Source: Azolla caroliniana
Lineage: Eukaryota > Plantae > Polypodiophyta
NCBI GenBank assembly: GCA_043228905.1
Contig: JBHGNT010000017.1
Location: 8,184,001 to 8,248,000, forward strand
Direction of reading: 5' to 3'
Length of the DNA: 64,000 bases
Made by a program: the position numbers and the translations under genes. The notes under the pieces are model-generated. The model saw nothing but the letters and a program-made list of their open reading frames with translations. It was not told the DNA's origin and did no database searches. This document shows positions 10,337 to 56,797 of the stretch, piece after piece (within the stretch, counting starts at the first letter, position 1; every line of letters begins with the position of its first letter).

Positions 10337-11475
10337 TGTTACATACGATGCATGACATTTATGTTACTCATTTGAGTCAGCATGTATAGAATATACTTGG
10401 TGCTTGATATAAAAGGTTATAGGTTCAAGCCTCACAAATGTCACTTGATATAACATTTGAATTTGTTTTTATATCATGAAGTAACTGCTTCACGACAACG
10501 CATGTTGAAGACGACAACGATCTGCAACACTTTTGCTATTGCTTGTTGTAAATGACTTGTTTAATCATTCATTGCAACATGAATGTAAATAAAACAAAAG
10601 ATGTAAATTTATAAATAATTATCGAATCATCATGGTTGGCTCACTAATGGCAAAAGTATTTGAATGTATGATAGAACCAAAGGTAAGTGCAGCAAAATTG
10701 GTAAGAGAGCTTATGGACAAACTTACTTTTGAAAACACCGTAGTGCCATCGATTACCTTGTCACCCTTCGAGTATCAATGGAAGAAAGTCGCTTGAAGAG
10801 TAAGGGTTTATATTGTTGCTCCAGTTGGTGTCTCAATGGGTATGCTCATGAATTAACATCTCATAAATATCTTAGTACCATACAATTTTAGCTTCTTTTA
10901 AAAGGCGTCGAATCATAAATATACCATGGAATCCTTTCTTTGGGTACTACCAAGCAGAAGTTTCCAATCGAGAAAAATGCACATATGTTATGTTTATTAA
11001 GTAGAATTGGAATCCACACACTAAAAGAGGTGTGATGGCATCAAACGAGGAGCGGAGAACGTTATCTATATGATCCCGAAATCCGGACAAGGTGTGATGG
11101 CAGTCATCGAACCCGTGGAAATGGATTGTGTGTATGTCTGTGTGCGTGTGTGTGTATTTTATATGTGGGGTCAATGTTAATAATTTCACAAAGCTATTAT
11201 TATTATGGATGGGGGTCATAAGATTTTCACAAGCAAAGAAGAAACCGATAGACCCCTCAAACAAAGATAACAAAAATCGAATCAAATATCAAGACTTGAA
11301 GAACCCACCCACATCAGGAAACTCGAAGCTCCTCTCTCTCTCTCACAGACAGAGGTCCGCAGATCGAAGCGCTGCAGCCCTATGGGCCTTCAAAAAGCTT
11401 TTTTGTTTTCTCACCATTAAATCTGTGGTCCTCCTCCTCCTTCGTCATCATCTCTTCTTCTGCGCTCAAGTCTCC

Positions 11476-16300: not shown

Positions 16301-16614
16301 TGGTCCCATAGGTCATGTATCACTAAGTACAAGGAGCTGATCTTCCCACACCAAGTATCATATATATATATATATATATATATATCACTCAATTCAACTG
16401 AAAATGTTTCACTTTTGATCCCATAGGTCATATATCACTAAGTACAAGTAGCTGATGTTCCCACACCAAGTATCATATATCTATCTATCTATCTATATAT
16501 GACCTATGGAACCAAAATTGAAACATTTTCAGTGGAATTGAGTGGTGATGATTCTTGATTATCAAAAATGTTACTCTAGATCGTTGCGATTGATTAGAGA
16601 CACATTAGAGACAC

Positions 16615-37700: not shown

Positions 37701-40700
37701 CGGCCCGGACGAGGAAATCAGCGGAGCCGTGGAGGCGGTCTCCTTCCACGACACCTTGGGAATGCTGAAGAAGGTAGCCGGAGAAGACCTTAACGAAGAC
37801 CGGACGATACCAGTATGTTCCGAAGAGATGTACGAAGTCATCGCGAACTTCAGTCAGGGGCTCGGGTCGGATCGGACGGCCCGAGTTAGCACGAAGTACA
37901 AGACTGTGGACCGGAAGGTAAGGCCAGTCGCGGCACCCTTACCGGAGGGCAGCGAATCCCGAATCAGAGGAGTTGCGTCGGACCCCAGTTTACGAGATCC
38001 GGTCTGCATAGGACACACCTTCACCGACGGGACGCTCCGGGAGCTCAAAATCGGTGGGGGCGGGTTCCTACTGCCGGCGGAAGAAGACCGGTTTCGGAGA
38101 ATGCTCGGAAGGCACGGGAAAGCCTTCACATTCTCACCGGGAGAGATCGGGTGCGTAGACCCGACAATCGTGGAGCCGATGGTGATATTCACGGTACCGC
38201 ATGTGCCGTGGAATCTCAAGCCGATTCCAGTACCGAGAGCTCACATCCCGAAGTTGATGGAGCTATTGAGGCAGAAAGTCGACATGGGCATTCTCGAACC
38301 GTCAAGTGCCCCATACTCGAACCGATGGTTTACTGTACCAAAGAAAAACGGAACATTGCGCTTCATTCAAGACCTGCAGCCGGTCAACAGAGTTCCCATT
38401 CGGAACGCAGGAATCGGACCGACCATAGACGAGTTTGTGGAGGCCTTCGCCGGAAGGTCGATTTATTCGGTCGGTGATCTGTACTCGGGGTACGACCAGT
38501 TCTAGCTAGCCGTGGAGAGCAGAGACATTACGACGATGCGAACTCCCCTCGGCCTAGTGCGAATGTGTACCCTGCCACAAGGAGGGACCAACTCGGTGGC
38601 CCACATGGTAAATGCAATGAACAAGGTACTGAGGGATTGCATCCCAGACGTCACCATGCCATTTCTAGACGACATCCCGATAAAGGGGTGCCCGGTGGAA
38701 GAGAAGGACGAGACACTCGGGCCGGACGGATGCCGGCGATTCGTGGCAACACACATCGACGACTGTGAGAGGGTGCTACGAAGGCTAGAGGGTGCGAGGC
38801 TCACCTTCTCCGGGGAGAAATCGGCCTTCGGGCAATCAGAAATCCTGGTGGTCGAACACCTATGTGGACCATATGGCCGGAAGCCGTCTCCGGCAAAGGT
38901 AGAAGCCATCTCTGCGATGAAGACCGACTGTAGCTCGGTTACGGAAGTTCGGAGGTTCCTGGGGGCATGCGCATTCTACCACATATGGATCCCGCATTAC
39001 GCCCACGTTGCGGAACCGCTATACGGGTTGCTGAAGAAGGGACGAAAATTCGAGTGGCGGGACGAGCACACGGAGTCGGTCCGGAAGCTGAAGGAAGCTC
39101 TTGCGGCAGCACCGGCGCTCCGGAAGGCTGTCTACGAGAAGGGTACCCCGGTATACATAACGGTGGATACGAGTCCGACCGGGATCGGATGGGTCGTCAA
39201 CCAAGAAGACGAGGACGACATTCGGGTCCCGATCCGATTCGGCGCAAAGGTCCTCAGTGAGCGATAGCGAGGGTACTCCCAGGTTAAACGCGAACTTTGG
39301 GGTATCGTTTCGGCAGTAAAGGCCGACAAAGACTACCTGATCGGGACAGAAGTGATTATCGAGACGGATTGCCTGCCAATTCTCGGCATGGTCTCCGGAT
39401 GTGCGACACTGGACCTGACGATGCTCAGGTGGATAGCGTACATCAAGTCCCTGAACCCGGAAATACAACACATTTCCGGAAAAGACAACGCCATGGCCGA
39501 CATGCTTTCGAGGGCGAGGTTTGATGACGAGGGCGGCATGGTTTCGGAGGACGAAGAAGTCGGCGTGGACTTCTTCGAGGCGGCGTACGTGACGACCGAT
39601 GGGGCGAGCACTCCGGCACTTAACGGCTTCAACGAGAGCAAGTACGACGGCGAGTGGCTACGGATCGGTGGGTTTTTGAGGACAATGACGCCGGATGCGT
39701 CATGGATGAGGGACGAGGCCAACCGGATCCGGAAGAAAGCATACCGATTCTTTCTCCGGGACGGATACTTATGGAAGCACCCGAAGAAGAGGAGCGGCGT
39801 CCCGCTCCGGGTGGTGGCGACGAAGGAAGAACATGAGGAGCTGCTGACAGCCTACCATGACAACCCTTGGGTTGGACACCGTGGAACATGGGCCACGTTC
39901 GAGAAGATGAAAGGGAAGTACTGGTGGCCGGGACTGTACCGGGACGTGCATCGGTTCGTGACAACTTGCGAGAGCTGTCAGATGCACTCCATCGTCCAAC
40001 ATCGGGACGAGCTTCACCCTACGTACCCTCCAACCATCCACTTCAAATGGATGGTAGATCTGGTGACGATGCCGATGGGAGTAGGACAGATGCGGTATCT
40101 GGTCCTGGCTCGGGAAGATCTGACGAACCAGGTGGAAGGCCGAGCCCTTCAGAACAAAACGACCGCGGCCGTATGTCGGTTCCTGATCGAGGACGTGATA
40201 TGTCGGTACGGGTGCGTCGGGAAGATCGTGGCTGATCGCGGGGAGTTGGACGCCGAAGAGACTGAGGAGCTGTTCGACCGGCTAGGAGTCAAGCTCTCGC
40301 TTACCACTGCGTACAATCCGGAGGCGAACGGGAAGGTGGAGTGCGGACACGGACCGATCGTCAAGGCGTTAGTTCGGGCATGCGAAGGTCAAGTCGGGAA
40401 CTGGCCGCGACTGTTGCCTTACGCGTTGTGGGCGGACCGAACTACGCACAGTTCGGTAACCGGATTCATGCCGGCAGAGCTCATGTTTGGGCAGAAGCCG
40501 ATCATGCCGATGGAACGTACGATCTCCTCATGGGCAACCGTGGACTGGAAAGATGAGATGAGCCGGGAGGAACTGTTGGCGGCGCGCATACGACAGCTCG
40601 AGCGAAGACCGGAGGACGTGGAGCAGGCTGCGGGAAAGCTTCGGGTGGCAAGGACGAGAAACAAAGCCCAGTTCGACCGGACGCACCGGCTCCGACCAAA

Positions 40701-41694
40701 GAAGATCGAGGAAGGCGACTGGGTGCTAGTCTACGACAACAGCCTCGACAACCAGCACCGAGCGACATGGAAGTTCGCAAGAAGGTGGTTCGAGCCTTAC
40801 GTGGTCCAAAGTGCCAACGACAACGGGACGTACCATATGGCGGAACTCGACGGCACGAGAATGCCGATACCGGTAGCTGGGAAGCGGATCAAAGCGTTCA
40901 AGAAGCGTCACGGCGACGAGCCGGATCCGGTTAACCTGGACCGCGACGACGAACGATCCGAAACCGAGGAAGAACCGACGGGCGGGGAATGAAGGCTGGA
41001 CCGGTTTTCTCCGTCCCAACTCAATTTGGCGCATGCCAGTGGATGCTCGGTTAGGTGGGGGCGGATGTCGTGAAGAAAACCGTCCACAAGCGGAATTGGT
41101 GCACCGGAGCGTAGGAACCGGCTCTTCATGCACGTACGGCTTATGTTGTACATAGAAGATCCTAGGTAGGTAGATTCGGTAGGTAGGAAGTTAATGGGAA
41201 ACGGCTCCTTCCTTGCCTATAAAAGGAGGGAGACGAGGAGGGGGGAACGGATCACGGAATCAGAGAGGACAAAGTGTTGTCGGGTTGTCGGTCGAATGCT
41301 TCTCTCTCTTCAATACTCCGTAGCTTCTTTCTGTTCAGGGTTTCGGGAGGCTCGCGCTGCTCTGAGGAATGCCCGAGTGCTTCCGGCAGCACCTCCAACC
41401 TACTGCTTTCCTTTTGAGCGTTTACGAACAGGCATTGGCATCTGTTCGCCGGCCTGTTCAGTTGTAACCGACTTCGTGCTTCTTGTTGTTTGTCTCTGTT
41501 AATATATACATACATACTTTCGTGCCTCTCTGTGTTGGTTTCCCCGCTCGCGTCTTCGTGTCGAAGGGCCGTGTCCCTGTGGATCTACGCTCGCACGTAG
41601 TGGGTCCCTTCCCTTCTCCTTTCTCTCTTGCTCTTCGGTACAAGACCCCCGAGGTCCCGCCTCATTCCACGCATCCGCGAGGAATACCTCGACA
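34742..41694 (+). mobile_element. Ty3/gypsy retrotransposon, tRNA-Trp-primed lineage (5' LTR 34742-35358, 5'-clipped; 3' LTR 41066-41694)
   Basis: LTR pair. PBS TGGTGAACCCGACGTGAA at 35362. Order gag-PR-RT-RH-INT. Purine-rich tract before 41066. Confidence 0.95.
35402..40992 (+). pseudogene. gag-protease (35402-37528) and -1-frame RT-RNase H-integrase (to 40992), with five nonsense mutations
   Basis: CMWCDEVGHIRKDC, LVDHGSEIN, LPQGGTNS, FLDD, VDTSPTG, H..H..CESC, WMVDLV, ADRGE, NGKVE. Confidence 0.92.
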
Positions 41695-41797: not shown

Positions 41798-42017
41798 ATG
41801 TCATGAACACATGACCATTATGGCGTCACCCGAACTTGAACCTCGAACCTTGTAATCCATAATTGAAAACCTGAACCATTAAGATAGCTTATTGTCATCT
41901 GAGAGGATAATATATAAAAGCTACTTTTTGTATTACATTGATTATTGTAAAAACTCTAGAACATTCTAGGTCTAGAACAATCTAGAACATTATAGAAATC
42001 TCTAAGTTATTCTATAG

Positions 42018-45000
42018 TGTTGGGAGACAGGTCCCTCAGGATGGGAAGGGAGAAGAACAGTGCCGATGAACAAACTCGGCCGAGGCCGAAACCGGATGAC
42101 GAGTACCTGACTACGGAGAGCCGGATGGTGCAGACCCGGTGAAGACTGGATGAGGAGTACCCGGCTACGGAGAGCCGGATGGTGCAAACCCGGTGAGAAC
42201 CGGATGAGGAGTACCCGGCTACGGAGAGCCGGATGGTGCAAACCCGGTGAGAAATGCTATATTTGTAAATATGTTTCTGAGAGTCCATCATGGCTATATT
42301 TGTAAATAGCTGAAAAGACATATTAGTATAAATATGACTTAGGGCAAACTTTTAGTTGGTGTTGTCATTTTCTTGTTGGTGTAAGAAGAGAGAGAGCGTG
42401 TAACTGTGTACAGAGAGAGAGAGAGAGAACGAGGTCGTTGCCTCCGTGAACTCACTGTTGTACATTCTAACATAGTGATAGTTTGCAGCCTGTGGGCTGC
42501 CGTGGTTTTTCCCTTAGTTTGGGTTTTCCACGTAAACATCTTGTGTACTTTTCTCTCCTTTGTGTTGTGTCTTCACCTTTCCCGTTTTCTGCGTATGATT
42601 CTAAGCTCGGTTGTGGCTGAGTGTTGCGCATAACGAGCGTTTAGTTCTCGTCAAGTGGTATCATAGCAAAACGACACAGAAAATGGACGATTCGTTGGGA
42701 GGCATGTTCAAGCTCACCGGCTCCAACTATTTAGTGTGGAAGTCGAAGATGAGGGACATGCTCGTGGTTAAAGACCTCTGGCTGCCAGTTCAGTTCGAGG
42801 ACAAGAGACCGGACAAAATAGACGCCGCGATATGGGAGGTAATGCACATGAAGACAACGGCGTACATACGGTGCTTCATCGACATGAGCCTATACAACAA
42901 CTTCAATGAAGAGAGCAAGGCTCATGAGCTCTGGGAGAAGATCAGCATAATGTTTCAAAACAAAAATGTTGTTAATCAGGTTTCGGTATTTCGGAAGCTA
43001 GTAAGACTCCGGTACCAAGACGGCTCCAGCATGGCAGAGCACATGAATGCCTTCCACGGGCTGATACACCAGGCAACGTCATTGGAAGTACCTTTCGCCG
43101 ACGAGGTACTAGCACTACTCCTGCTCGGTTCCCTCCCGAATAGCTGGGAGACGTTGGTTGTCACTTTGGGCAACGCCGGGCCGGAAGGAAAGCGGTTATC
43201 CCTAGCAAGAGTAAAGTCGAGCTTGCTAGATGAGAAAGCGCGTCGGAAAGATAAAGATACGAGCTCCGACTCCAAAGCGCTCCTTACCGAATCGGAACGC
43301 GGAAGACAAAGAAACCGTAGTCCCCAGAACCGGGAAAAGTCGGGGACACGGTCAAAGTCAAGGGGGAGACCTACTTGCTTCTATTGCGGAAAGCCGGGAC
43401 ACTTCCAGAAGAACTGTCGACATTTCTGAAAGGACAAGGAAACCGACGGTACCGATTCGAAGCGGATACCAGACCGGAACGGTAAAGACCGGAGGGGAAC
43501 GGACCGGAAGGGGACGACGGCAATCGCGGCAAGTGAAGAAGAGTTGATGCTCATCACCGAGGAGAGTGAGATAAACCTTGCCGGCGACGAGATGACCTGG
43601 GTGGTAGACTCCGAAGCGTCGTTCCACCTTACCCCGGACCGGAAATGCTTCTCATCCTACTCAACCGGTGATCACGGCTGTGTCCGGATGGGGAATGAAG
43701 GTACATGCCGAATTGTCGGCATAGGAGACGTGTGGTTGTCAACACCAACCGGATGCAAGTTGTTGCTGAAGGATGTTCGACACGTTCCGGAGGTTCGACT
43801 AAACCTGATATTAGCCGGTTGGCTAGATGATGAAGGCCTCACGGGTAGCATCCAGAACGGTGTCATGAAGTTCAGCAAAGGGAGCCTGATTGTGGCTCGG
43901 GCCCGGAAGGTAAACACGTTGTACCTCATGAATGCCTGGTTATGTCCGGAGGAAGTGAACGTGGCATCCAACACTGCCGGTGAGTTGTGGCACAAAAGGT
44001 TGTGTCACATGAGTGAGAAGGGGATGAAGAGGCTTGCAGACGACAACCTCATTCCAGTGAAGAACGTGCACTTGGAGAAGTGCACTGATTGTCTAGCCGG
44101 TAAGCAAAACCGGACCTCCTTCCGATCAAGGCCACCGATGAGACGTAATGCGCCACTGGAGTTGGTGCATACTGATGTGTGTCAAGTGGACACGAAGTCA
44201 CATGCAGGATCACAGTACTTCGTGATGTTCATAGATGACCACAGCCGGAAGCTGTGGGCCACACCGTTGAAGACGAAGGATCAAGTGTTATCCATCTTCA
44301 AAGAGCTCCACGCGAGAGTGGAAAGAGAAACCGGCCGGAAGCTAAAGGTGGTTCGAGCAGATAACGGAGGAGAATACTGGGGGCAGTTCGAGGAGTACTG
44401 CCGCTCGAAGGGAATCCGGCTTGAATTTACCGTGCCGAAGATGCCGGAACTAAACGGACTGGCCGAGAGGATGAACCGGACCATAATGGAGAGGGTCCGG
44501 AGTATGCTAGCGCATGCAAAACTACCCAAGAAGTTTTGGGCTGAGGCATTGTCGACGACGACATATGTGATAAATAGATCACCCTCAGTACCCTTGGATG
44601 GAGACACGCCACAGAGAGTATGGACCGGTAAGGAAGTATCCTACTAGCATCTGAAGGTGTTCAGGTGTCTCGCGTACGTGCATGTAGCTAAGGACCGGAG
44701 AGGAAAGTTATATCCAAAGACCCGGCCATGCATTTTCCTCGGTTACGGTGACGATGAGTTCGGCTACCGAGTGTGGGACCTGGTCGACAAGAAGGTATTC
44801 CGGAGTCGAGATATTATCTTCATGGAGGACAAGACGCTTGCTGACTGGGAGTCGGAGAAGAAGATAATGAACTCCGAGTCGACCGGTAAGGATAGACTCT
44901 ACAATGAACAGACCCAACCGGCAAGAGACCGGTTAGCACTCGAGGAGCCAGCCGGTTACGGTGAGGATATCGAACCGGCAGAAGAAGAAGTAGAGGAAGC

Positions 45001-46243
45001 CGAAACTGGAACCAGCCATGACCCCGAATGGGATTTGGATGAAGAGCAAATAGAGGAGCCGGTTACCGAAGCCCAGAGACGGAGATACCCTCTCAGAGAG
45101 AGAAGGGCCCCCCGGAGATTTCCGGATGTAGAGCATGTGCTGTTAACCGATGAGGGGGAGCCAGAAAGCTTTGAAGAAGGAAAGGATGACACCCACAACC
45201 GAAAATGGTTAAGTGCCATGCAGGACGAGATGGATTCCCCGCATGAGAACCATACGTACGAATTGGTGGAGTTGTCGAAAGGAAAGCGGGCACTTCGAAA
45301 TAAGTGGGTCTACAAGTTGAAACCGGGAGATGCTGGCAACCCCCCGAGATACAAAGCCAGGATCGTGGTGAAGGGGTTCCAACAGAAGAAGGGCGTGGAC
45401 TTCGATGAGATATTTGCCCCGGTAGTAAAGATGACCTCCATCCGGAGGGTGCTGAGTATAGTGATAAGCATGGACCTCGAGGTAGAGCAGCTCGACGTGA
45501 AGACAACATTCCTTCACGACGACCTTGAACAGGAGATCTACATGCAACAACCAGAAGGATTCGTGGAGAAAGGGAAGGAGCACCTGGTATGCCGGTTGAA
45601 GAAGAGCCTGTACGGACTGAAGCAGGCTCCCTGACAATGGTACCGGAAGTTCGACTCCTTCATGGCCGATCAAGGGTACCACAAGACGCAGGCCGATCAC
45701 TGTGTGTTTGTGAAGAAGTTTGAAGGAGGCGACTTCCTGATACTCCTTCTGTACATGGATGACATGTTGATCGTCGGACGGGACCAAGTCAAAATACAGA
45801 TGCTGAAGAAGGCCCTCAACCGGACCTTCTCAATGAAGGACTTGGGTCCGGCAAGACAGATGCTGGGGATGCATATTATTCGGAACCGGTCAATGAAGCA
45901 ATTGTGGTTGTCATAGGAGAAGTACGTGACAAAGGTGCTTCAGCGGTTCAACATGTCAGATGCGAAACTGGTCGGATTGACACTTCCGGCAAACTACAGG
46001 CTATCCGGTAAGCAAAGCCCGAAGACGAAAGCAGAGAAGCACGAGGTCGTTGCCTCCGTGAACTCACTGTTGTACATTCTAACATAGTGATAGTTTGCAG
46101 TTTGTGGGTTGCCGTGGTTTTTCCCTTAGTTTGGGTTTTCTACGTAAACATCCTGTGTACTTTTCTCTCCTTTGTGTTGTGTCTTCACCTTTCCCGTTTT
46201 CTGTGTATGAGTGTTGCGCATAACGAGCGTTTAGTTCTCGTCA
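42018..46243 (+). mobile_element. Ty1/copia inserted in the chromovirus LTR; 5' LTR 42018-42653, 3' region deleted, residual 3' LTR 46041-46243
   Basis: Perfect TSD TATAG (42013-42017 / 46244-46248). PBS TGGTATCATAGC 42656. gag-PR-INT-RT with several stops. Three ~54-bp tandem units in the LTR (42092-42255). Confidence 0.95.
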
Positions 46244-47463
46244 TATAGGAACCTATAAATAATGGGATACATGTATTTTCAAATCAATTTGAATCAACAC
46301 CAGTCTTTAGCTCTCATTACATATCTTCTATCCATTCTCTTTCTTTCTCTATCTTAATACACCCATTCTTCTCTTAGCATTTCATTCCTTTCTTCTCATG
46401 TTCTCTTATATCCTTCTTCCATCACTCTATCTTTTATTCTTGGTTCTGACAGTTTGATTCGAATTCTCTCTCTCTCTCTCTCTCTCTCATCCTCCTCTAT
46501 AACCATCACGAAACCATGGCCGCCATTAACTCAGAAGAATATCTCACCCTTGTTCCAGAAATGGAGAACCTTAAATCCAAGTTCGCATCTCTTGAAGTAG
46601 AGAATCAACGTCTACTTGGGGGTTACTATAGAGAAGCAACAACAACAAGAGGAGTTCACGCGATGGGTTCAACAGTTAGAGTCGACAATCGTAGTGTTAC
46701 AACAACAAAGGGTCGAAAGTCCAAAATTAGCCTCCCAGCTAAATTTGATGGTTCGAGGGCGCATTTCCGAGGTTTCTTGAATCAAGAATGGTTGCTGATT
46801 CAAATGTATCCCACACATTATTTGATAGATGCATCACGATAGTCGGGTTAGTGGGCACCTTATGGACTGCCATAGCGTTGTCGTGGTTTGCTCCATTGCT
46901 AGCGACAAATTCTCCTCTACTGAATAATTTTGAGGAATTTATCAAAGAATTTAAGGCTTGTTTCGGAGATACTAGTGGGGTGAGAACAACTATCAACAAG
47001 ATTCGTACACTACGTCAAGGTGATCAGCCAGCTTCGACATATGCAACCAATTTTCATCTCATCGCAAGCGATATTCCTTGGGATGAACAAGCCCTAATGG
47101 AGCAATTATGTTCAGGCCTTCGTAGTGATGTCAAAGACTTACTTCTTACCTTCTCCGAGGATCCAAGGTCACTTACAGAAGCTATTAGTTGAGCAATACA
47201 GTGTGATAATCGCCTTTTTCAGCGTCGATGTAAGCTGTTGTACGTTTTAGGGTTAGGGTTAATGGTAATGATGATTATCGATGACGAAGATAGAAATGGC
47301 GGAATAGTGAAGATGGTGGAGAGTATGATGGTGAGAGAGATTGAGATGAAGATGTTGAGAATCATTGAGAAGCATTGCGGGGTGGGGGGTGGTGCCTAGA
47401 ATGGCTCCACCCCCTCCCAAGGGGGTTCATCGTTAAGGGGAGAGAGAGGAAAAGAGATGACAA

Positions 47464-47494
<31 letters not shown>

Positions 47495-48090
47495 TTATTC
47501 CTCTTTCATTCATTCCCCATAAGGGGTTAAATAGTACAAGAGGGGGTAGATACATACGGGTGTAACTCCCCTCGAGCATTCATACTGGACACTCACTCAC
47601 ACCTCCTCGTATCCATCCACATGCACACACGTTGTCGTGAAGATCCGTCACTACGCGCGGATCGTGAGGCGGAACCGCCGGGGTTCTGGACCGGAAGGAT
47701 TCAAAGTCGGTACAAGCTTTTCGTAAGCTTTAGCGAGAAAGTACTTAAGATAGATTGGGAAAGAGAGAAGTTGAGATCACCCAATTGAGAGAGATTGATT
47801 GAAGTTTAACTTTAGATTTAAGAAACAAGTTACACGATCAATTTGATAACGAATCTCTTCCTCTTAATTTTCATAAAAAAAACCGTGTTTTTTCTCCTCC
47901 CCCTTCCCTCTTTTATAGATGCTCTCATGCATATGATGCATGTGAGGGTACAAGACATGCATAAATTGCATGTTTGCCATTTGGCGCTTACGTATTACAT
48001 GTGGTGCATGATAACCATGTCACTCATTTTAGTTCTCATGTATGAGAATTTACATGTAAAAGTACTATGATAGAAATATAATTTCAACTA

Positions 48091-48161
48091 AATAGCATGG
48101 CTTAATGGTAAGCCAATTGACTCTTAACTTGGAAGTGCAAGGTTCGAATCCTTACTTGCCC
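48091..48161 (+). promoter_or_regulatory. tRNA-like A-box/B-box cassette inside the LTR (second copy about 58674-58744)
   Basis: TGGCTTAATGG (48098) and GGTTCGAATCC (48141) at tRNA spacing. D-arm GGCTT/AAGCC and T-arm AAGG/CCTT pair. The acceptor stem does not pair. Confidence 0.7.
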
Positions 48162-49434
48162 TCCTTGTATATGTAAATATGTATATATATTTATATATTT
48201 ATTTATCTAGCCGGATGCCGTCGGTTACCGGTGCGTCGTCGGATGCCATCGCCGGATACCAGTGCATCGGATGCCGTCGGTTACCGTTGTCGTCGCCGGA
48301 TGTTGTCGGTTACCGGTGCGTCGCCGGATGCCGTCGGTTACCGGTGCCTCGCCGGATGCCGCCGGATTACCGTCGGATGCCGCCGGATCACCGGCTCCAT
48401 CGCCGGTCCGGTTTTGGTTGGCCAAAACCCTTTACGTACCTTGAACTCTCTATGCTCCACACATAGACACAAAGATAATATCTTTTGCTCCACCTTATAT
48501 ATGATGAGAGCTGTATTTGTCGTGCCTATGTGGGATATCTCACAATTTTCTCCTTTCCTTTTACAAACTTTATACCCTCATATCTTGACATTTAGTTGTT
48601 CGTTTCTCGTGTAATAAAGTGCATTCGAAACCTCCATCATTTTGTACTTAGATATTAAATCGATTTAAAATGTTATCTTCACAATTATTGTATTATGTGA
48701 TTCATACTCGATTTCGTACGTTTTATGGGATTTTCACACTATTGCCGAAAATCTTCACGACATCCACCCCCACCAAACCGCACGTCCTCCGGTACGTGCC
48801 AAGAAGAGAAGAAGTGAGATTTCGGCTACGATGATCAATTAGATTCCTCCATGGCTTCATTTTCATCCGGCCTATAATGTTCATCGTCGAGGTAATCGAG
48901 GTCAGGATCCTTGTCTTGTCTTTTCTTGAAAATCTTTACTCTTTTTCCCGCAATGGGTACGGCCAACCTTGATCCGTCTAGTTCCGCAAGGTGGTATGTG
49001 GCATTATCGTTGGCACTTGTTACCACATACGGCCCGAACCATCTTCTTGCGAACTTCCTTGTTGTACTGTGTTGATTGTCAAGGGTGTTGTCGTAAACCA
49101 AAACCCAATCCCCTTCTTTAATCTTCTTGGGACGAAGTCGATGCGTGTTGTCGAACCGAACTTTGTTCTTTACTCGGGATGCCTTCATCATCGTTCGCGC
49201 TTTTTCTAAATCTTCATGTCTTCTTTCAAGTTGCCTTATCCACGCTGCTAATGACTCTTCTCGGCTCATCTCGTTCTCCCATGGTATCGCTACCCATGAG
49301 GCGATCGTCCTTTCGATGGGCATAATCCGCTTTTGTCCATACATAAGCTCCGTCGGCATATACCCTGTCACCGAGCTATGTGTCGTTCTATCGGCCCACA
49401 AGGCATAGGGTAATAGTCGTGGCCAATTCCCGAC

Positions 49435-51648
49435 TCAACCGTTGCATGCCCGTACGATGGCTTTAACGATAGGTCCATGCCCTCGCTCGATCTTCCCATT
49501 CGCTTCCGGATTGTAGGCAGTCGTGAGGGAGAGCTTCACGCCTAGTCTTTCGAAGAGTTCCGTCGCTTCGTGCGCGTCCAACTCCCCTCGGTCGGCCACT
49601 ATCTTCCCTACACATCCATATCGGCAAACAACATCTTCAAGTAAAAATTTACAAACGGCTGAAGTCGTCTTATTTGTCAAGGCTCGTCCTTCCACTTGAT
49701 TTGTCAAGTCTTCCCTTGCCAACGCTAAGTACTTCATTTGTCCCACTCCCATTGGCATCGAGACCAGATCCACCATCCATTTGAAGTGAATGGTGAGTGG
49801 GTATGTCGGCTTTAACTCATCACGATGACGTATATTTGAATATATTTGGCAAGTTTCACATGTGGACACGAAATGGAGTACATCTTTGTACATGCTTGGC
49901 CACCAGTACTTCTCCTTCAATTTTTCGAACGTTGCCCATGTTCCTCTATGACCTGCCCAAGCACTCTCGTGGAATTCGGTCATCAGCGTCTCTTGCTCTT
50001 CTTTCTTTACCACCACTCGACGTGGTATTCCTGTCCGTCTTTTTGGATGTCGCCAAAGGAATCCTCCCTTCAAGAAGTATCGGTAAGCTTTCTTTCGGAT
50101 TCGTAGGGCCTCCTCCTTTGTCAACGAAGCATTTGTCGTCAATGTTCTTAGGAATCTACCGATGAGTAACCATTCTCCTTCGTACTTGTTCTCGTTGAAG
50201 GCGTGGAGGGTTTGCGTGTCCTGGTCTTCCGGCGACATTCGAGCCATCTTGAAGAAGTCGAGCGCGACATCTTCATCTTCCGAAACCATGTTACTTCCAT
50301 TTGAAAATCTTGCCCTCGACAGCATGTCAGCCATGGCGTTCTTCTTCCCTGCAATGTGACGGATCTCTGGGTTTAAAGACTTGATGTAGGCGATCCACCT
50401 TAGCATAGCAAGATCTGCGGTCGCACATCCCGAGACCATTCCGAGAATTGGGAGACAATCTGTCTCTATTATCACTTCTGACCCAATCAGGTAATCTTTG
50501 TCCGTCTTCACTGCTGACACAATACCCCAAAGTTCCCGCTTGACTTGGGCATATCTTTGTTGCCGTTCGTTGAGAACCTTTGCTCCGAACCGGATGGCAT
50601 ATCGCGCATTATCTTCACCTTCTTGGTTGATGACCCACCCGATTCCGGTTGGACTCGTATCTACGGTCACGTAAATTGGTTTCCCTTTGGCATAATCGGC
50701 CTTCCTTAGTGCCGGAGCTTCAAGAAGAAGTTTCTTTAATCTTCGCATCACCTTTGTGTGCTCGTCTCGCCATTCGAACTTTATTCTTTTCTTTAGTAGT
50801 CCATATAACGGTTCGGCGACATGAGCGTAGTGAGGAATCCATATATGATAAAATGCGCATGCTCCAAGGAACCTTCGAACCTCCGTTTGGTTTTCGCATT
50901 CTTCTTTCATGTCTTGGATTGCGTTCACTTTGGATGGCGAGGGCTTCCGGCCGTATGCTCCACACAAGTGACCTACCACCAAGATCTCTGGTTGCCCGAA
51001 TGCGGATTTTTCTCCCGAAAATGTCAAATTCGCATCTTTGAGCCTTTGAAGCACCTTCTCGCAATCTTTCATATGATCCGCAACGAACTTTCTACAACCT
51101 TCCTTATCTTTCGATTCATCTTTCTCCTCATCCGAACATCCTTTTATCGGAATATCATCCAAGAATGGCATCGTGATGTCCAGAATGCAATCCTTCAAGA
51201 CTATATTCATGGCATTCACCATATGAGCCACCGAGTTCGTTGCGCCTTGGGGTAAGGTACACATCCGCACAAGCCCGATCGGAGTCCTCATGGTTGTAAT
51301 GTCCCGACTGTCGATCGCCAATTGGAATTGGTCATATACGGAGTAGAGATCGCCAATGGAGTAGATGGACCGGCCCGCAAACGCTTCGGCAAATTCGTCC
51401 ACGCTCGGACCGATTCCAGCATTTCGAATTGTCACCTTGTTGACGGGTTGAAGATCTTGGATGAATCGCAATGATCCATTCTTCTTCGGCACCGTGAACC
51501 ACCTATTGGAATAAGGAGCATTCGACGGTTCTAGAATTCCCATACTCACCTTCTCCTTTAAGAGCTCGATCAGCTTTGGAAGGTCAGCTCTCGGAACCGG
51601 TATCGGTTTCAAATTCCAAGGCACATGAGGCACCGTGAAGATCACCAT
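49435..51648 (-). CDS. RT-RNase H-integrase fragment (737 aa) of the 47633 element
   Basis: LRFIQDLQ, LPQGATNS, FLDD, VDTS, GHRG, CETC, WMVDL, ADRGE. Frameshifted at both ends. Confidence 0.9.
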   Translation of the reverse strand: MVIFTVPHVPWNLKPIPVPRADLPKLIELLKEKVSMGILEPSNAPYSNRWFTVPKKNGSLRFIQDLQPVNKVTIRNAGIGPSVDEFAEAFAGRSIYSIGDLYSVYDQFQLAIDSRDITTMRTPIGLVRMCTLPQGATNSVAHMVNAMNIVLKDCILDITMPFLDDIPIKGCSDEEKDESKDKEGCRKFVADHMKDCEKVLQRLKDANLTFSGEKSAFGQPEILVVGHLCGAYGRKPSPSKVNAIQDMKEECENQTEVRRFLGACAFYHIWIPHYAHVAEPLYGLLKKRIKFEWRDEHTKVMRRLKKLLLEAPALRKADYAKGKPIYVTVDTSPTGIGWVINQEGEDNARYAIRFGAKVLNERQQRYAQVKRELWGIVSAVKTDKDYLIGSEVIIETDCLPILGMVSGCATADLAMLRWIAYIKSLNPEIRHIAGKKNAMADMLSRARFSNGSNMVSEDEDVALDFFKMARMSPEDQDTQTLHAFNENKYEGEWLLIGRFLRTLTTNASLTKEEALRIRKKAYRYFLKGGFLWRHPKRRTGIPRRVVVKKEEQETLMTEFHESAWAGHRGTWATFEKLKEKYWWPSMYKDVLHFVSTCETCQIYSNIRHRDELKPTYPLTIHFKWMVDLVSMPMGVGQMKYLALAREDLTNQVEGRALTNKTTSAVCKFLLEDVVCRYGCVGKIVADRGELDAHEATELFERLGVKLSLTTAYNPEANGKIERGHGPIVKAIVRACNG

Positions 51649-54100
51649 CGGCTCTATAACCTTTGGGTCGGCGTATCCGATTTCTCATGGGAAGAATGCA
51701 AAAGCCTTCCCATGTCTCTCAAGCATATCGCGAAACATTCGCTCCTCTTCAGGGAGAAGGAAATCCTCCTTTCCAACTCGTAGCTTCCCCTTCGTCTCTT
51801 TGGTGAAGTCATGACCTATCTTCTTTGGATCTCTTAAGCTTGGATCGTTAGCGACTTCCTTCATCTTTTGCCAGCTATCTTCCGGTAGCGGAACCGCAAC
51901 TGGCTTGATCTTCTTATCCACCGTTTTATATTTCGTGTTGATGTCAGCTTACTTGATCGAGATGCCACGACGGTATTCATCGATGATAGCGTACATGTTG
52001 ACGGAGTTAACCGAAATCACGCGTTGGTTGTGAAGATAGCTCAAGTCCACGACGTCCTCGATTTCGCCGATGGTGTCGTTAAATGAGGCTTCTTCCATAA
52101 TATGAGTCACGAACTCTCCCTCTTCTATTATATTCTCTTCTTTCAACATCTTCTCGAATTCTTGTATCCGGCGCTTGTGCTTCTTGTCGGGTAGTACTAG
52201 TTTACATGCGCCAGTGGTGTCGTTAAATGAGGCTTCTTCCATAATATGAGTCACGAACTCTCCCTCTTCTATTATATTCTCTTCTTTCAACATCTTCTCG
52301 AATTCTTGTATCCGGCGCTTGTGCTTCTTGTCGGGTAGTACTAGTTTACATGCGCCACTAGGTGTGACACATGTTGCTTCTCCTTGCAATCCACGCACTC
52401 TTCTTTCTTGTGGGGTCTTGTGATTGCTCGGACTATTTGTGCCCCATGCTTCAATAGTCCGCTCTAAAATCCGAGGATTCGCCTCCGAGACTATCTCGAT
52501 TCCTTTCATGATTGGCTCGCACCGTTAGGAATTGGACCAATCTTTGGTTGTCAAGACTCTTTATTCGTGCAAAGGCTGCTCCATTATCGAACACTTTGGT
52601 CTCCATCCGAGATGATGTGATATAAGGTTGCCCTAGGATGACAGGATGCGACGCCAATTCTTGTACGAAGAAGTGTTGATCCATCTCCACATCCCCGATC
52701 GTGACTTTGACATTTGGACAAGCTCCGTACAAATACTCCGTAGACTTTGTTGCCGCGCGAATCTTCCATCCGTGGTTTGTATTGATTGGCCATCTTCCTT
52801 TTTTGTAGAAGTCGGTTGACATGAGGTTGATCTCCGAGCCGTGGTCGATCAAGGCTACCACAGTCTCTTTCTTCTCCCCGATCTTCACCGGCGTCTCCGT
52901 TGTCGCTCGTGCCCAATGAGGTCGAGTGTAGTGGCTGTCCACCATATCTTCATCGATTTCATCTCTTGCCATCATTATGGCATTCGTTTTTGCTTTTTGC
53001 GGCTTCTCTTCTTCCTCGTCTGATTGTTGTCTCTTTCTCTTTACAAGGTCCACGATCGTGTCATGGAACTCCTTCTTCGTAATGCCAAGCAATTCCCTCA
53101 AGGACAAAGTTACGTGGCTATCAAGAACTCGTTCTTCGAGAATCTTCTTTAGGTCCGTCGTCTACTCTATGTCCGACCTTAGCTTATAGGTAGGTATAGT
53201 CCTTGTCCTCCGAGCGGGGTCTTCGACACCAACCTTCACGGGCCGCACCGTTTCTTCAACTCGTATGCTCGGCTCCCCTTTTCAGCTTGATTCTCGTTCC
53301 TCCGTTTGTAAAGGTCGACTCGTCTCCGCATCGTCCTTCTTTTTCGCGTTCCTTGTTTCATGTCTTTTAGATGGGCCTTGCTCTTCTATTCTCTTTCTCT
53401 TTTCTTCGACGAACACCTTGTGGTTGTCGCACATCACCTCTGCGAGTATGGTGTTGTCGTCCACCGGATCCGACAACCCGGTTATGCTTTGCACGCTTCG
53501 GTCCGCAAGCTCTACCTCGTTCGATGTGATTTTTCCCTTCTTCTCATATTCGAGAACGGAAGTCCAAAACTTTGCTCCAGCTCTAGCAGCTTCAGTCTTG
53601 TCTTTCCCGACTCTTATTCCGGCCGACGCAGCATAGTGCATCGCATCCACATGAGTCGCATCGGCATCCTCCATAGATCTCTTCATTCCTCCTCTTCCGA
53701 AATTCACCCGTAGGGGTCTTCTAGTCTCGCTTGAGCAGATCATGTTGTCCTCTATGTATACGATATTTTGTCGAATCGCCTCTCGAAGACTCGCACAATC
53801 CCTTCTCATGTGGTCCATGCTATCGCACCACACGCATCTAAAGGGTTCTTTTCCTTTAGGGCCCCGACGATTCATGTTGGCTAGCGTGACCTTCTCGAAC
53901 TTCTTCGCTAGCTCTTCAATGATGTCGTCATCAATCTTCTTTTCTTCCACGTTACTTTGTCTTGGCGGCTCAACTACTTTCGGCGGTCTTGCTTTCTCCA
54001 TTGTCGTAGTGTATTTTGTACACTACGTGAAAAACGTATATAGTATTAGATTCAATAAAAAATGAAGAAATAGAAGAAAATAGCAAAATAAATGGAACAT

Positions 54101-54170
54101 GCATAGGGCAAGATTCGAACCTTGCACCTCCATGTTAATAATGTAATGTCTTACCATTACACTAGCATTT
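54101..54170 (-). promoter_or_regulatory. tRNA-like A-box/B-box cassette inside the LTR (second copy 56855-56924)
   Basis: Minus strand reads TAGTGTAATGGTAAG...GTGCAAGGTTCGAATCTTGC. T-arm GCAAG/CTTGC. Confidence 0.65.
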
Positions 54171-54769
54171 CATTAGTGTTAAAGCATAGATGTCCCACAT
54201 AGAAAGGTAAATTCACGCTAGGATAAACATTAGAAAAACGCATAACAAAAGAAAAAGCTACACATACACATCTAGCGTGCATGATAAAAAACGCACAAGT
54301 TAGAAAAAAGCATGATCACTTTAGATAAAGCATATAGTCTATCTATAGGAAAAGCATGGGGTCTATAGTTAGAGAAAAAGCATGGATTACTAAGACTTCC
54401 TCATCACTACATAAGGATGGGGAGCACAATGTAATTGTGTGTGAAAAATATTTGGAAACTAGATATGTTTCTAAAAAACACCAATTAATAAACTATACTC
54501 GTGGGATTCACGAGAATTCTATATCATTCTCTTTCAACCGAAGTTTATATTCTTATATTCATATTGATTAATCTAATACAATACACTCGTGGGATTCACG
54601 AGTTTGCTATAACTCTTTCTTACAACATATTTATATTCTTATTAGCCTTAAAACTCTCTTCTTCCTAGTCCAAAACCCCAGTGGTTCCCACCCGACTCAC
54701 GCAAACGATCCGGAGCCGAAAGGCACGACACAGTTGGTGAACCCGACGTGAAGACCGGGTGGCAAGGAG

Positions 54770-56797
54770 ATGGAGAATCAACAAGAGGCGATGAACATGA
54801 TGATGATGATGTTCGAGAGAATGCTACAAGAACAACGCGAGATGTCGGAGATCACGACAGTAGTACAACGACTCGTACAACGAAACGGACAATTCAACGG
54901 AAACGATGTGTCACGCTATCTACGTGACTACAAGGCGGAGATGATACGATGTGGGATACCGGAAGGATTGCAAGTGATATCCTTTAGTCGGGTGGCCTCG
55001 GACGAACTACAAGAGAGAATCCACAAGATACAACAACAAAACTCGACATGGGAGTCCTTTGAAGAAGCTTTACGGGAGGCATATGACTATGAGAGATGGA
55101 CGGGACGAGATCGACGAGAATTCGACGAATGGGTGGCGTCGGAGAAGACTCACCGAAGTGCAACGCAAGCGTTCCTAGAGTTCGAGCATCGTTTTGCTCG
55201 ACTCTCGGAGCGGGAACGAAGATTGGTGGGAGGAGATAAAGTCTTAATGTTCGTAAGATCGATCGATCGGAAAGAAAGGATAGACATTGGGATCGAACTC
55301 GAAGATGATGACGGTGCGAACGGCCTTACCGAGGATTGGGCTAAAGTCGAAAGGGTATGCCGAAGACATGATGAAAGGAAGTTGAGAATCTCGTCAACAA
55401 CGACATGGCCCATGAAGGATGGTCGATTGAGGAAAAACGATGAAGCCAATATGAAGGCCGAAATACAACATGATGGTACCACGGGAGAAAGAGTGGAACA
55501 AGACACCCACTCGTCTTGTGAAAGAACGATGGCGAAGGATAAGGCCGATAATTCAAGTGTAGAAGGAAATTTCGGGATACAAGTGCCCGAGACATCGGGT
55601 CAAAAAGGGGTAAGCATAATAGATGTTTGCATAATTGATGCAGATAAAGAGTGTGAAGCGGATGTGATTAAGGAGGTAGCCACAAAAGACGAAATCGAAT
55701 CAGAGGTGGCTATGGACGAATCAATGGCGGATTGCCATATCGAGACTTCCCCACCACTGATTCCAGAGACTCCGGCGGTTGCGATCGAAAGGCAACGTGA
55801 GACCGAAGAGACGGAAGGTGGCGGAGAGAAAACGAATGCCGAAGCCGACGAATATGATGAAGAGATAGCCGAGAAGAATGCTAAGGGTGAAACTACGAAA
55901 GAAGGTAATACCGAGGATTCATGCCAACAATATCTAGAGACTTCGGCGGTTGTGTCCGAGAACCAACGTGAGACCGGAGAGACGGGAGATGGCGGCGAGG
56001 AAGGTAAAGTCGGAAGTCGGTTCGGATGGAAAATGATCCATCCGAAATTCCAATCTAAAAGAAAGTGCGACAATGCGGAGGTCGGGTCTACGACGGGAGA
56101 AGCGCGTAATACAGAGCACGCTCTACGGCGAATAAAGAAACGCGTGTTATGGCGAATAAAGAAGCACGCGCTACGGCGAGAAAAGAAGCATGCATTACAA
56201 CCACACGAGGACCGAACAACGAGCACATATCGGAGGACCTACGTAGCGAACAACGGAAAGAAGTGCCGAAAGTCGAACCGGACAAGGCAGGTGAAAACGA
56301 AGAAAAGAAAGCAAATCCGGACGAAAAGAAAAGAAAAGAAACCGACCCGAAAGAGCACTGAATCGGTAAAAACCGATCAACCGAGTCCGGATCGACCGAA
56401 TACAAATCGGAAAGGAAGCCGAACTAAACGAAAGACGATCCGACGAGACCGAATCGGAAGTAAGCTAATCCGACTAAACCGAAAATCCGAAAAGAAGTCG
56501 AGATTGATGAAGAAAAGAAAGAGGGCAAGAAAAGATACTACCGTGGATGACAAGGACCAAGCGGGCCATGCAAAAAGCGAACGAAGACTATGGTGGATCG
56601 GATGGCGACAATGGTTCGGGTGGAAAGAATGGGTCTACTCAAAATGGAGAGACAAAGTTGACATAGCGGGACAAACGGAGGATGGACGGAGGAGACTAAC
56701 AAACACCAACAACTTCGGCACATACCGGAGGATGTGCGGGTTTGGAGGGGGTGAGTGTCGTAGTGTATTTTGTACACTACGTGAAAAACGTATATAG
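54770..56797 (+). CDS. Gag-derived 675-aa ORF with an acidic middle and a K/R-rich tail
   Basis: N-terminal ~205 aa align by eye with the gags at 35402 and 58154 (GQFNGNDVSRYL..Y, WESFE, GLTEDW..V..VC). No CCHC knuckle and no pol. Confidence 0.8.
   Translation: MENQQEAMNMMMMMFERMLQEQREMSEITTVVQRLVQRNGQFNGNDVSRYLRDYKAEMIRCGIPEGLQVISFSRVASDELQERIHKIQQQNSTWESFEEALREAYDYERWTGRDRREFDEWVASEKTHRSATQAFLEFEHRFARLSERERRLVGGDKVLMFVRSIDRKERIDIGIELEDDDGANGLTEDWAKVERVCRRHDERKLRISSTTTWPMKDGRLRKNDEANMKAEIQHDGTTGERVEQDTHSSCERTMAKDKADNSSVEGNFGIQVPETSGQKGVSIIDVCIIDADKECEADVIKEVATKDEIESEVAMDESMADCHIETSPPLIPETPAVAIERQRETEETEGGGEKTNAEADEYDEEIAEKNAKGETTKEGNTEDSCQQYLETSAVVSENQRETGETGDGGEEGKVGSRFGWKMIHPKFQSKRKCDNAEVGSTTGEARNTEHALRRIKKRVLWRIKKHALRREKKHALQPHEDRTTSTYRRTYVANNGKKCRKSNRTRQVKTKKRKQIRTKRKEKKPTRKSTESVKTDQPSPDRPNTNRKGSRTKRKTIRRDRIGSKLIRLNRKSEKKSRLMKKRKRARKDTTVDDKDQAGHAKSERRLWWIGWRQWFGWKEWVYSKWRDKVDIAGQTEDGRRRLTNTNNFGTYRRMCGFGGGECRSVFCTLREKRI

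What the first reader, a model, noticed from the sequence alone, without database searches (positions are those of the whole stretch)
48091..48161. Conserved antisense tRNA-like (Pol III A/B-box) cassette built into the LTRs of two retrotransposon families
Seen: the 1130-bp LTR carries TGGCTTAATGGTAAGCC..GACTCTTAACTTGGAAGTGCAAGGTTCGAATCC (48098, 58681). The otherwise dissimilar 729-bp LTR carries TAGTGTAATGGTAAGAC..TTAACATGGAGGTGCAAGGTTCGAATC (54164-, 56918-). Spacing is tRNA-like, T arms pair (D arm fully in the long LTR), acceptor stems do not, and the CTCTTAA loop recalls tRNA-Lys(CTT). In both families the cassette lies in presumed U3, upstream of the putative TATA and pointing away from the element's transcription. 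The first T4 tracts are at 48412 and 54088. Known analogy: Cassandra TRIMs carry 5S Pol III promoter sequence in their LTRs, and B-boxes bound by TFIIIC can act as chromatin barriers. Inference: a captured tRNA/SINE head kept as an insulator, antisense Pol III promoter or small-RNA decoy. I do not know of this being described for plant gypsy LTRs. The third relative (34742) appears to lack it.
Basis: partly seen in the sequence, partly recalled or inferred. Interest (0 to 1): 0.85.

Follow-up and report, generated by a model that had tools for sequence, protein, structure and literature searches.

The report
Backward tRNA-type promoter in retrotransposon ends
Many families of a plant jumping gene carry, in their end-repeats and facing away from their own promoter, the two promoter boxes of a tRNA gene at exact tRNA spacing but without the tRNA fold, which likely binds the RNA polymerase III machinery and would help keep the element's promoter open in silenced DNA.

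Summary
Real, and wider than reported. Both LTR families carry tRNA-type A and B boxes at tRNA spacing, antisense, in presumed U3; they fit the Phygy clade of Ty3/gypsy. In 80 related contigs plus the window, a textbook box scan gave 24 hits in 52.8 kb of LTR segments, 0 in 220 kb of pol and 1 in 1.58 Mb of shuffles. 10 of 26 assessable families have the antisense cassette, 2 only a sense one, 14 none. A probably self-priming gypsy LTR in the window has a worn copy. Boxes and spacing persist while the spacer diverges and the cloverleaf is gone. In family A the cassette is family-wide, and 1 of 22 box positions varies against 23 of 69 others. Corrections: the 'Lys' loop is a private mutation, the 58681 copy has a broken B box, and a neighbouring module is as conserved. 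Best reading: a TFIIIC/TFIIIB site kept beside the element's own promoter (function inferred; no ChIP or RNA data). Closest known: Helenus, short non-autonomous elements (sense where checked). The scan earlier noted a backward tRNA relic in a fungal-like LTR. New variant of a known kind.

The parts
47633..48762 (-). 3' LTR of element A (Phygy-type gypsy), 1130 bp
   Evidence: target duplication ACGT at 47629-47632 and 59347-59350
58216..59346 (-). 5' LTR of element A, about 98% identical to the 3' LTR outside the tandem tract
58190..58207 (-). Primer-binding site of A (18 nt; Trp type by recall, not checked against a fetched tRNA)
   Evidence: Phygy uses tRNA-Trp in 81%
49435..51684 (-). pol stretch of A: RT, RNase H, integrase
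48098..48108 (+). A box of the cassette in A's 3' LTR (antisense to the element)
48141..48151 (+). B box, 43 nt after the A-box start; no variant at 1% or more in three DNA runs
58681..58734 (+). Cassette in A's 5' LTR; B box carries C-to-T at the invariant C
47911..47918 (-). TATA-like site of A, 180 nt from the A-box start, back to back with the cassette (function inferred)
47945..48060 (.). Conserved U3 block between TATA and cassette: TGCATG repeats and a short palindrome at 47976-47985
48412..48415 (+). First T4 tract after A's cassette (260 nt past the B box)
54002..54730 (+). 5' LTR of element B (gag only, nested in A), 729 bp
56756..57484 (+). 3' LTR of element B; 2 differences from the 5' LTR
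54752..56797 (+). Single 681-aa ORF of B; its gag part is about 52% identical to L022/L024; no pol
54111..54164 (-). Cassette (A box to B box) in B's 5' LTR, antisense; first T4 at 54088
56865..56918 (-). Cassette in B's 3' LTR
54096..54136 (-). Predicted long hairpin over B's B box, not in tRNA register
41832..41886 (-). Worn antisense cassette in a third LTR family
   Evidence: (profile E only 0.55)
41799..46451 (+). Presumed 5' LTR of a probably self-priming (Tcn1-like) gypsy element, split by a copia insertion at about 42019-46243 (duplication TATAG); broken gag from 46516
34742..41694 (+). Element C, a relative of A whose LTRs lack the cassette

Best explanation
The cassette is a tRNA-shaped A-box/B-box pair built into U3 of many Phygy-type LTRs, back to back with the element's TATA-like site, and it is likely kept as a DNA binding site for TFIIIC and TFIIIB that would hold the element's own promoter open in silenced chromatin. 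Shown: the boxes at tRNA spacing, their place and direction, their retention while the spacer and the cloverleaf decay, and their presence throughout family A. Inferred: an old tRNA or SINE capture. Inferred: spread between families by exchange of U3 modules. Inferred: TFIIIC binds the boxes and places TFIIIB with TBP on the side facing the Pol II promoter, about 150-240 nt away, with or without a short antisense Pol III transcript (about 90 nt in B, about 330 nt in A). Inferred and untested: this acts like a yeast or animal tDNA barrier for an element that inserts at NCGN sites inside other transposons. My odds: about 0.7 that the boxes are under selection in transposing lineages, and about 0.4 for this particular job.
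For: Between families with pol under 75% identical (67 of 78 pairs), four-fold sites are 0.30 identical, the A box 0.65, the B box 0.83 and the spacer 0.43. Letters that the scan never asked for are also kept among 19 antisense cassettes: A21 in all 19, and AGGT at 44-47 in 18-19 of 19 per column. C56 is kept in 19 of 19 while its neighbour flips freely (G 7, A 12), as a B box allows; plain CpG decay would hit both. In 6 LTRs aligned by their flanks, 5 keep a 24-nt spacer at only 0.52 identity and 1 (L044) has lost 11 nt. Within family A, 1 of 22 box positions varies at 1% or more, and that change is allowed by the consensus, against 23 of 69 other positions (Fisher p 0.005; 0.013 without the three places where the window copy is the minority). 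No T4 lies inside any of 19 cassettes, against 3.7 expected (57 of 5000 shuffles). The four tRNA stems pair no better than shuffles, which points to DNA recognition. A TATA-like site lies 147-242 nt from the nearest A box in 11 of the 16 LTRs examined; 4 had no match and 1 a match 12 nt away. Targets are NCGN, and Phygy is enriched at centromeres of a liverwort (PMC12885004, passage). TFIIIB/TFIIIC barriers are established in yeast (PMC9540200, passages).
Against: No ChIP, RNA or reporter data exist here, so binding and effect are untested. 14 of 26 assessable families have no cassette, including A's nearest pol relative L001 (717 nt seen) and element C's group, so it is dispensable. The upstream block is as conserved as the boxes. 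Cassette likeness does not follow pol likeness (Mantel rho 0.14, p 0.23, 10 families), so pol divergence overstates the cassette's age. A T4 soon after the B box is not enriched (11 of 19 against 8.2; 630 of 5000 shuffles). In one search the B box lies 17-27 nt from the edge of the stretch, beside an AT repeat where contigs are cut; a majority variant at the other edge (48033) was missed, so the zero may be partly technical. The 19 cassettes are related and were mostly found by their boxes. All cassette-bearing contigs come from one accession series (71 of 80 loci); 0 of the 9 others had a hit at tRNA spacing. The passages I read cite tDNA barriers for yeast and animals, not plants.
Confidence: 0.4

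Rival explanations
1. Passenger: the cassettes are worn heads of tRNA-derived SINEs that entered U3 one or more times and were carried between families by LTR recombination. The boxes look conserved because SINEs arrive with good boxes and because the search looked for them.
For: Patchy presence (12 of 26 families with any cassette), both orientations, up to three per LTR. Signs of module swapping: L024 and L066 have identical pol but LTRs only 60% alike, and L028's two LTR ends share only their termini (misassembly not excluded). One copy has lost part of the spacer (L044) and one has a broken B box (58681). An earlier scan note judged a similar backward relic a passenger (e1-9852194, untested here).
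Against: Cassettes at the same place in flank-aligned LTRs diverged in the spacer to 0.52 while boxes and length held. C56 is invariant and position 57 is free. Box positions vary less within family A. Depth over the cassette is not above the flanking LTR, so no large free SINE family 80% like it showed. No tail or target duplication was evident around it in the alignments (by eye).
Confidence: 0.25
2. The product matters: Pol III makes a short antisense RNA whose long hairpin over the B box would be processed, or would act as a decoy or tuner of small-RNA silencing.
For: B's cassette folds at z -3.7 and A's 5' copy at z -2.5. In 6 sequences of B's group, 4 of 16 pairs change on both sides (covariation 0.196 against 0.088; 0 of 500 shuffles). 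Own arms pair better than swapped arms within that group (2 of 120 permutations). No T4 lies inside the cassettes.
Against: The structure was predicted from one of the six rows, and two of the four double changes sit at CpG-type dinucleotides. There is no such signal within the other two groups (p 0.25 each). z is below -2 in only 7 of 20 on the cassette strand (3 of 20 on the other strand). Predicted lengths run from about 74 to 329 nt.
Confidence: 0.15
3. Brake rather than shield: an active tRNA-type promoter would dampen the neighbouring Pol II promoter, as recalled for yeast tRNA genes next to Ty3 LTRs, and so keep the element below the host's silencing threshold.
For: The same box and spacing evidence as the best explanation. 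The yeast position effect is recalled; the terms I searched for it were absent from PMC5911963.
Against: Family A, which carries it, is very abundant in its host (summed depth in the hundreds of thousands; not a copy number). Sequence alone cannot give the sign of the effect.
Confidence: 0.12
4. Second primer-binding site: on the genomic RNA the cassette reads as the complement of a tRNA and would anneal to the primer's T and D arms, as Ty3's U3 does.
For: Antisense direction and a U3 position fit the Ty3 bipartite site (PMC5371799, passages). A tRNA-like tract in HIV-1 U3 is recalled; I did not see that paper.
Against: Cassette positions 61-72 match the primer end read from A's own PBS at only 3.7 of 12 on average. 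Position 52, inferred to be T in the primer from T-stem pairing, is G or A in 19 of 19, as in a B box. Sense cassettes exist, and one cassette sits in an LTR with no tRNA PBS.
Confidence: 0.08

Closest known systems
Helenus (TRIMp3; Kojima 2024, PMC10886601; read parts 1-4 of 6, searched passages, one supplement passage)
   Same: A tRNA-derived tract in both LTRs, with boxes A and B conserved and no working tRNA. One plant family is known (Selaginella). The paper also remarks that 'not a few' Repbase LTRs resemble part of a tRNA, but it followed up only TRIMs.
   Different: Helenus is 311-1263 bp and non-coding, and its promoter is taken to drive the element. In the three LTRs I could read in the supplement passage, Selaginella's among them, the tract is sense (by eye). 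Here the elements are 3.5-8 kb and encode gag or gag-pol, and the cassette is mostly antisense and back to back with a TATA-like site. The paper argues that a TRIMp3 is unlikely to share long LTR stretches with an autonomous, Pol II-driven partner.
Cassandra and Ajax (5S-derived Pol III promoter in TRIM LTRs; PMC10886601; bioRxiv 10.1101/2023.07.14.548913, passages)
   Same: A Pol III internal promoter captured into LTRs and kept for its boxes.
   Different: 5S type rather than tRNA type. Cassandra's promoter transcribes the element itself; both are non-autonomous.
Phygy clade of non-chromovirus Ty3/gypsy (Neumann et al. 2019, PMC6317226; passages and one supplement row)
   Same: 4-bp NCGN target, Trp-type primer site, size 7.7-10 kb, RT-RH-INT order.
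   Different: The passages and the row I saw mention no Pol III cassette in the LTRs.
tDNA/TFIIIC chromatin barriers of yeast and animals (PMC9540200, PMC5911963; passages)
   Same: A and B boxes bind TFIIIC, which loads TFIIIB; this is the proposed mode of action.
   Different: Those are host loci. Here a mobile element would carry its own barrier. Not shown in this plant.
Ty3 bipartite primer-binding site (PMC5371799; passages)
   Same: tRNA-complementary sequence in U3 of a gypsy RNA.
   Different: Complementarity to the primer is not kept here.

Membership tests
Phygy (elements A, B, C) | 4-bp target duplication with NCGN preference | tested here: met
   A: ACGT on both sides; B: CCAT left and CCGT right; C: ACGT on the right, left end not intact
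Phygy (elements A, B, C) | tRNA-Trp primer site | tested here: inconclusive
   The same PBS is present in A, B, C and most relatives; the Trp label is recalled, as no tRNA gene could be fetched
Phygy (elements A, B, C) | Gypsy domain order, no chromodomain, 7.7-10 kb | tested here: met
   RT, RNase H, integrase and no chromodomain hit; A without B is about 8.2 kb
Phygy (elements A, B, C) | Placement with reference Phygy proteins in an RT tree | not tested
   No named reference at hand; named relatives are from Riccia and Adiantum
Helenus / TRIMp3 | tRNA-derived tract with boxes A and B in the LTRs | tested here: met
Helenus / TRIMp3 | TRIM: short (311-1263 bp) and non-coding | tested here: not met
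   A encodes gag-pol; B is 3.5 kb with a 681-aa ORF
Helenus / TRIMp3 | Promoter placed to transcribe the element (sense) | tested here: not met
   Antisense in A, B and 10 of 26 families; sense-only in 2
Helenus / TRIMp3 | Pol III transcription | not testable with these tools
   Only unstranded contigs were available
tRNA gene | Cloverleaf with four stems | tested here: not met
   ARAGORN found 0 in the window and 0 in 59 of the 80 loci scanned; no Rfam tRNA hit; stems at shuffle level
tRNA-derived SINE | Dispersed free copies with tail and target duplication | tested here: inconclusive
   No excess depth at 80% likeness; nearly all good hits lie in LTRs or LTR-like ends, L073 being a short contig whose context is unclear; no whole genome held
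Tcn1-type chromovirus (element at 41799) | No tRNA PBS; self-priming complementarity | tested here: inconclusive
   No tRNA-type site after the presumed LTR end; 10 of 13 bases complementary to the LTR; gag with Retrotrans_gag and sub-threshold DUF4939
Tcn1-type chromovirus (element at 41799) | RT placement and chromodomain | not tested
   Its pol was not located in the window

The most novel reading that the evidence does not exclude
Coding gypsy retrotransposons of this plant lineage carry a portable, self-installed Pol III barrier. A tRNA-type promoter faces away from the Pol II promoter, sometimes with a second one facing away on the other side. It is traded as a U3 module between distant Phygy families and even a self-priming lineage, and it lets the elements stay expressible after inserting into methylated CpG sites in heterochromatin. 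It would be the first plant case of a tDNA-type insulator and a ready source for Helenus-like elements.
Probability: 0.3. Interest if true: 0.85.

Novelty: new variant of a known kind. Interest (0 to 1): 0.6.

Why it matters
How LTR elements stay active after landing in silenced DNA is an open question, and the passages I read show tDNA barriers for yeast and animals only. Here a 54-nt site with a one-base switch (C56) occurs in related families with and without it, so the question can be tested directly in a plant. It also bears on how Helenus and Cassandra arose: coding families already hold Pol III promoters in their LTRs, some in sense, so a deletion could give such an element. If it is only a passenger, it still documents U3 module exchange across distant families.

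Tried and rejected
No whole genome is held, so there are no copy-level trees or solo-LTR counts. ARAGORN and Rfam found no tRNA. Viral collection: no relative of pol (56 pattern matches, none confirmed) and no match to the cassette pattern. No primer tRNA gene was found in viral or prokaryote collections, so the source isotype is open. Expression: no RNA holder listed. Two runs guessed to be RNA (X19, X17) hold contigs over the cassette at depth 6-8, unstranded; I do not count this as evidence. tRNA-Lys origin rejected. Cloverleaf covariation rejected: D 37 of 76 paired against 38.9 shuffled, anticodon 45 of 95 against 44.5, T 42 of 76 against 43.9, acceptor 49 of 133 against 49.5. A conserved 5' hairpin was not supported (2865 of 20000 permutations). 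A conserved terminator was not supported. Vertical descent of the cassette with pol was not supported. L014's cassette turned out to lie in a foreign LTR-like end inserted in its pol, so it is not counted for that family, though it is among the 19 cassettes. Rows left out: 29 of 80 loci (31 less the window's A and C rows make the 51) lacked enough LTR or pol for the tree. Of 32 families, 7 were not assessable by the script; one of these, L032, was dropped by a one-base slicing slip, and I added it back by hand, giving 10 of 26 (script: 9 of 25). L052 and L054 have uncertain LTR bounds and are counted among the 14 without. Positions 48030-48060 and 48152-48168 were left out of the Fisher count as edge-prone; they showed no variants. 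The scan's notes had no look-alike by sequence and none for moss/Phygy words.

Full report
Setting. The window is a nest of plant LTR retrotransposons; no whole genome is held. Element A lies on the minus strand (47633-59346). It has RT, RNase H and integrase, LTRs about 98% alike outside a tandem tract, and the target duplication ACGT. Element B (54002-57484, plus strand, 729-bp LTRs, one 681-aa gag ORF) is nested in A. Element C (about 34742-41694) is a relative with shorter LTRs. The target motif, primer site and size match Phygy as tabulated by Neumann et al. (NCGN 100%, tRNA-Trp 81%, 7.7-10 kb). Named protein relatives are from Riccia and Adiantum.

Observation. Three details fail. The 58681 copy differs from the quote at three places, including the invariant C of the B box. 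The 'Lys' loop is the minority letter in the family. The arms pair only partly, and neither ARAGORN nor Rfam calls a tRNA.

Breadth. A pol alignment fetched the best 80 of 327 confirmed metagenome loci. I delimited their LTRs by purine tract and primer site. A textbook two-box pattern, not trained on these data, hit 24 times in 52.8 kb of LTR segments, 0 times in 220 kb of pol and once in 1.58 Mb of shuffles. Spacing was always 43 or 44. A profile search found the same set plus worn copies, and nothing in reversed sequence. Grouped at 92% pol identity, 10 of 26 assessable families have an antisense cassette, 2 only a sense one and 14 none (with L032 added by hand). They are scattered over the pol tree. 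Some LTRs hold two antisense copies and a sense copy further along (L025, L037, L040). A worn antisense copy also lies at 41886 in a different LTR. That LTR has no tRNA primer site, shows 10 of 13 bases of self-complementarity, and precedes a gag with no similarity to the Phygy-type gags; it is probably Tcn1-like. Caveat: 71 of the 80 loci share one accession series, and none of the other 9 had a hit, so this may be a feature of one host lineage.

What is conserved. Among 19 antisense cassettes the four tRNA stems pair no better than shuffles, but boxes and spacing hold, as do letters never searched for (A21 and AGGT at 44-47). C56 never changes while position 57 is G in 7 and A in 12. Between distant families, four-fold pol sites are saturated (0.30) while the A box is 0.65, the B box 0.83 and the spacer 0.43 (flanks there are ungapped and so understated). 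To reduce search bias I aligned LTRs by their flanks. In A's group of 6, the spacer is 0.52 identical yet 24 nt long in 5; the boxes are 0.81 and 0.82; the sixth has lost 11 nt. The block 81-120 nt upstream (TGCATG repeats and a palindrome) is 0.85, so the cassette is not the only peak. Within family A, depth over the cassette (199-316 thousand in X1) is in the range of the LTR upstream (364-495 thousand), so it is neither rare nor in excess. Variants at 1% or more fall on 1 of 22 box positions and 23 of 69 others (p 0.005; boxes against spacer alone p 0.016-0.049), with an edge caveat for the B box. No cassette contains a T4 (0 of 19, 3.7 expected), but a T4 just downstream is not enriched.

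History. Cassette likeness does not track pol. L024 and L066 have identical pol but 60% alike LTRs, and L028's two LTR ends share only their termini. U3 modules were therefore probably exchanged between families, although collapsed assemblies can mimic this. Pol divergence cannot date the cassette; the contrast between box and spacer inside one module does not depend on it.

A fold not in tRNA register. B's cassette folds into two hairpins (z -3.7). The long one over the B box shows double-sided changes at 4 of 16 pairs in B's group, and own arms pair better than swapped arms there. The structure came from one of the rows, two of the changes are CpG-type, and the other groups show no signal. 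It remains a lead for an RNA-level role.

Mechanism. The pattern is what DNA recognition by TFIIIC would leave. TFIIIC reads both boxes and loads TFIIIB upstream (PMC5911963, passages), which here is the side facing a TATA-like site 147-242 nt away in 11 of 16 LTRs examined. These elements insert at NCGN inside other transposons, and Phygy is enriched at centromeres of a liverwort. I therefore take a self-carried barrier or promoter-opening site as the most likely job (0.4). Rivals are a passenger SINE head (0.25), a working antisense RNA (0.15), a brake on the promoter (0.12) and a Ty3-like second primer site (0.08; complementarity to the primer end is not kept). Binding, transcription and effect are all untested.

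Known systems and novelty. Helenus is the closest: the same kind of tract, but in short non-coding elements, and sense in the LTRs I could read. This is not a Helenus, since two defining features fail. That paper notes tRNA-like pieces in other Repbase LTRs without following them, so the bare occurrence is not new. Five searches aimed at a box-bearing cassette in coding plant LTRs showed no description, judged from listings and abstract starts. The library lacks most subscription journals and Repbase entries, and supplements of bioRxiv preprints were not consulted. Papers seen: PMC10886601 (parts 1-4 of 6, passages, one supplement passage); PMC6317226 (passages, supplement rows); PMC5371799, PMC5911963, PMC9540200, PMC13570524, PMC12885004 and bioRxiv 2023.07.14.548913 (passages only). 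The HIV-1 U3 tract, the yeast position effect, the Trp label and the box consensus are recalled. The scan's own notes hold a backward relic in a fungal-like LTR judged a passenger, and several Helenus-like elements.

Verdict. A real, lineage-wide feature with fair evidence of selection on the promoter boxes and no direct evidence of function. New variant of a known kind; interest 0.6.

Noticed in passing
window 47945-48010; L003, L016, L022, L025, L028, L040, L044 LTRs: A cluster of TGCATG repeats and a palindrome between cassette and TATA is shared by distant families, at up to 0.85 identity. From recall these resemble RY (B3-factor) and E2F sites.
   Followed up: partly
window 41799-42018 and 46249-46451: A presumed LTR of a probably self-priming gypsy element is split by a copia insertion about 130 nt upstream of its A box. 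It holds one exact heat-shock-element-like unit at 41959. A homologous end lies in L015 11985-12194.
   Followed up: partly
L025 7001, L037 3674, L040 786, weakly L003 1205: A second, sense cassette lies further along the LTR, past the TATA-like site in L025, L037 and L003, so the Pol II promoter would be flanked by two cassettes pointing away from it.
   Followed up: partly
L004 5680, L005 6548, L008 755, L069 2886: Sense cassettes upstream of the TATA-like site in coding families; candidates for precursors of Helenus-like elements.
   Followed up: no
L024 and L066; L028 6368-7028 and 12870-13512: Identical pol with 60% alike LTRs, and one contig whose two LTR ends differ in the middle: LTR module exchange or assembly chimeras.
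   Followed up: partly
window 54752-56797: B's 681-aa ORF has a gag N-terminus and a long repetitive C-terminal part with no Pfam match; B is young (2 LTR differences) and has no pol.
   Followed up: no
window 58190-58207: The primer-site letters occur in many plant small-RNA papers in the search listing, where ppt-miR894 is named; by recall that is a 3' tRNA fragment that could target these elements.
   Followed up: no
window 48210-48410 and 58790-58950: A GC-rich tandem tract in A's U3, just downstream of the cassette, differs in unit number between the two LTRs and among copies.
   Followed up: no
window 16382-16549: A long near-perfect hairpin (89-nt arms at about 90%), MITE-like, next to an AT microsatellite; Rfam hit below threshold.
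   Followed up: no
window 10395-10435: A weak 3' half of a cassette (profile E 0.01) outside the annotated LTRs.
   Followed up: no
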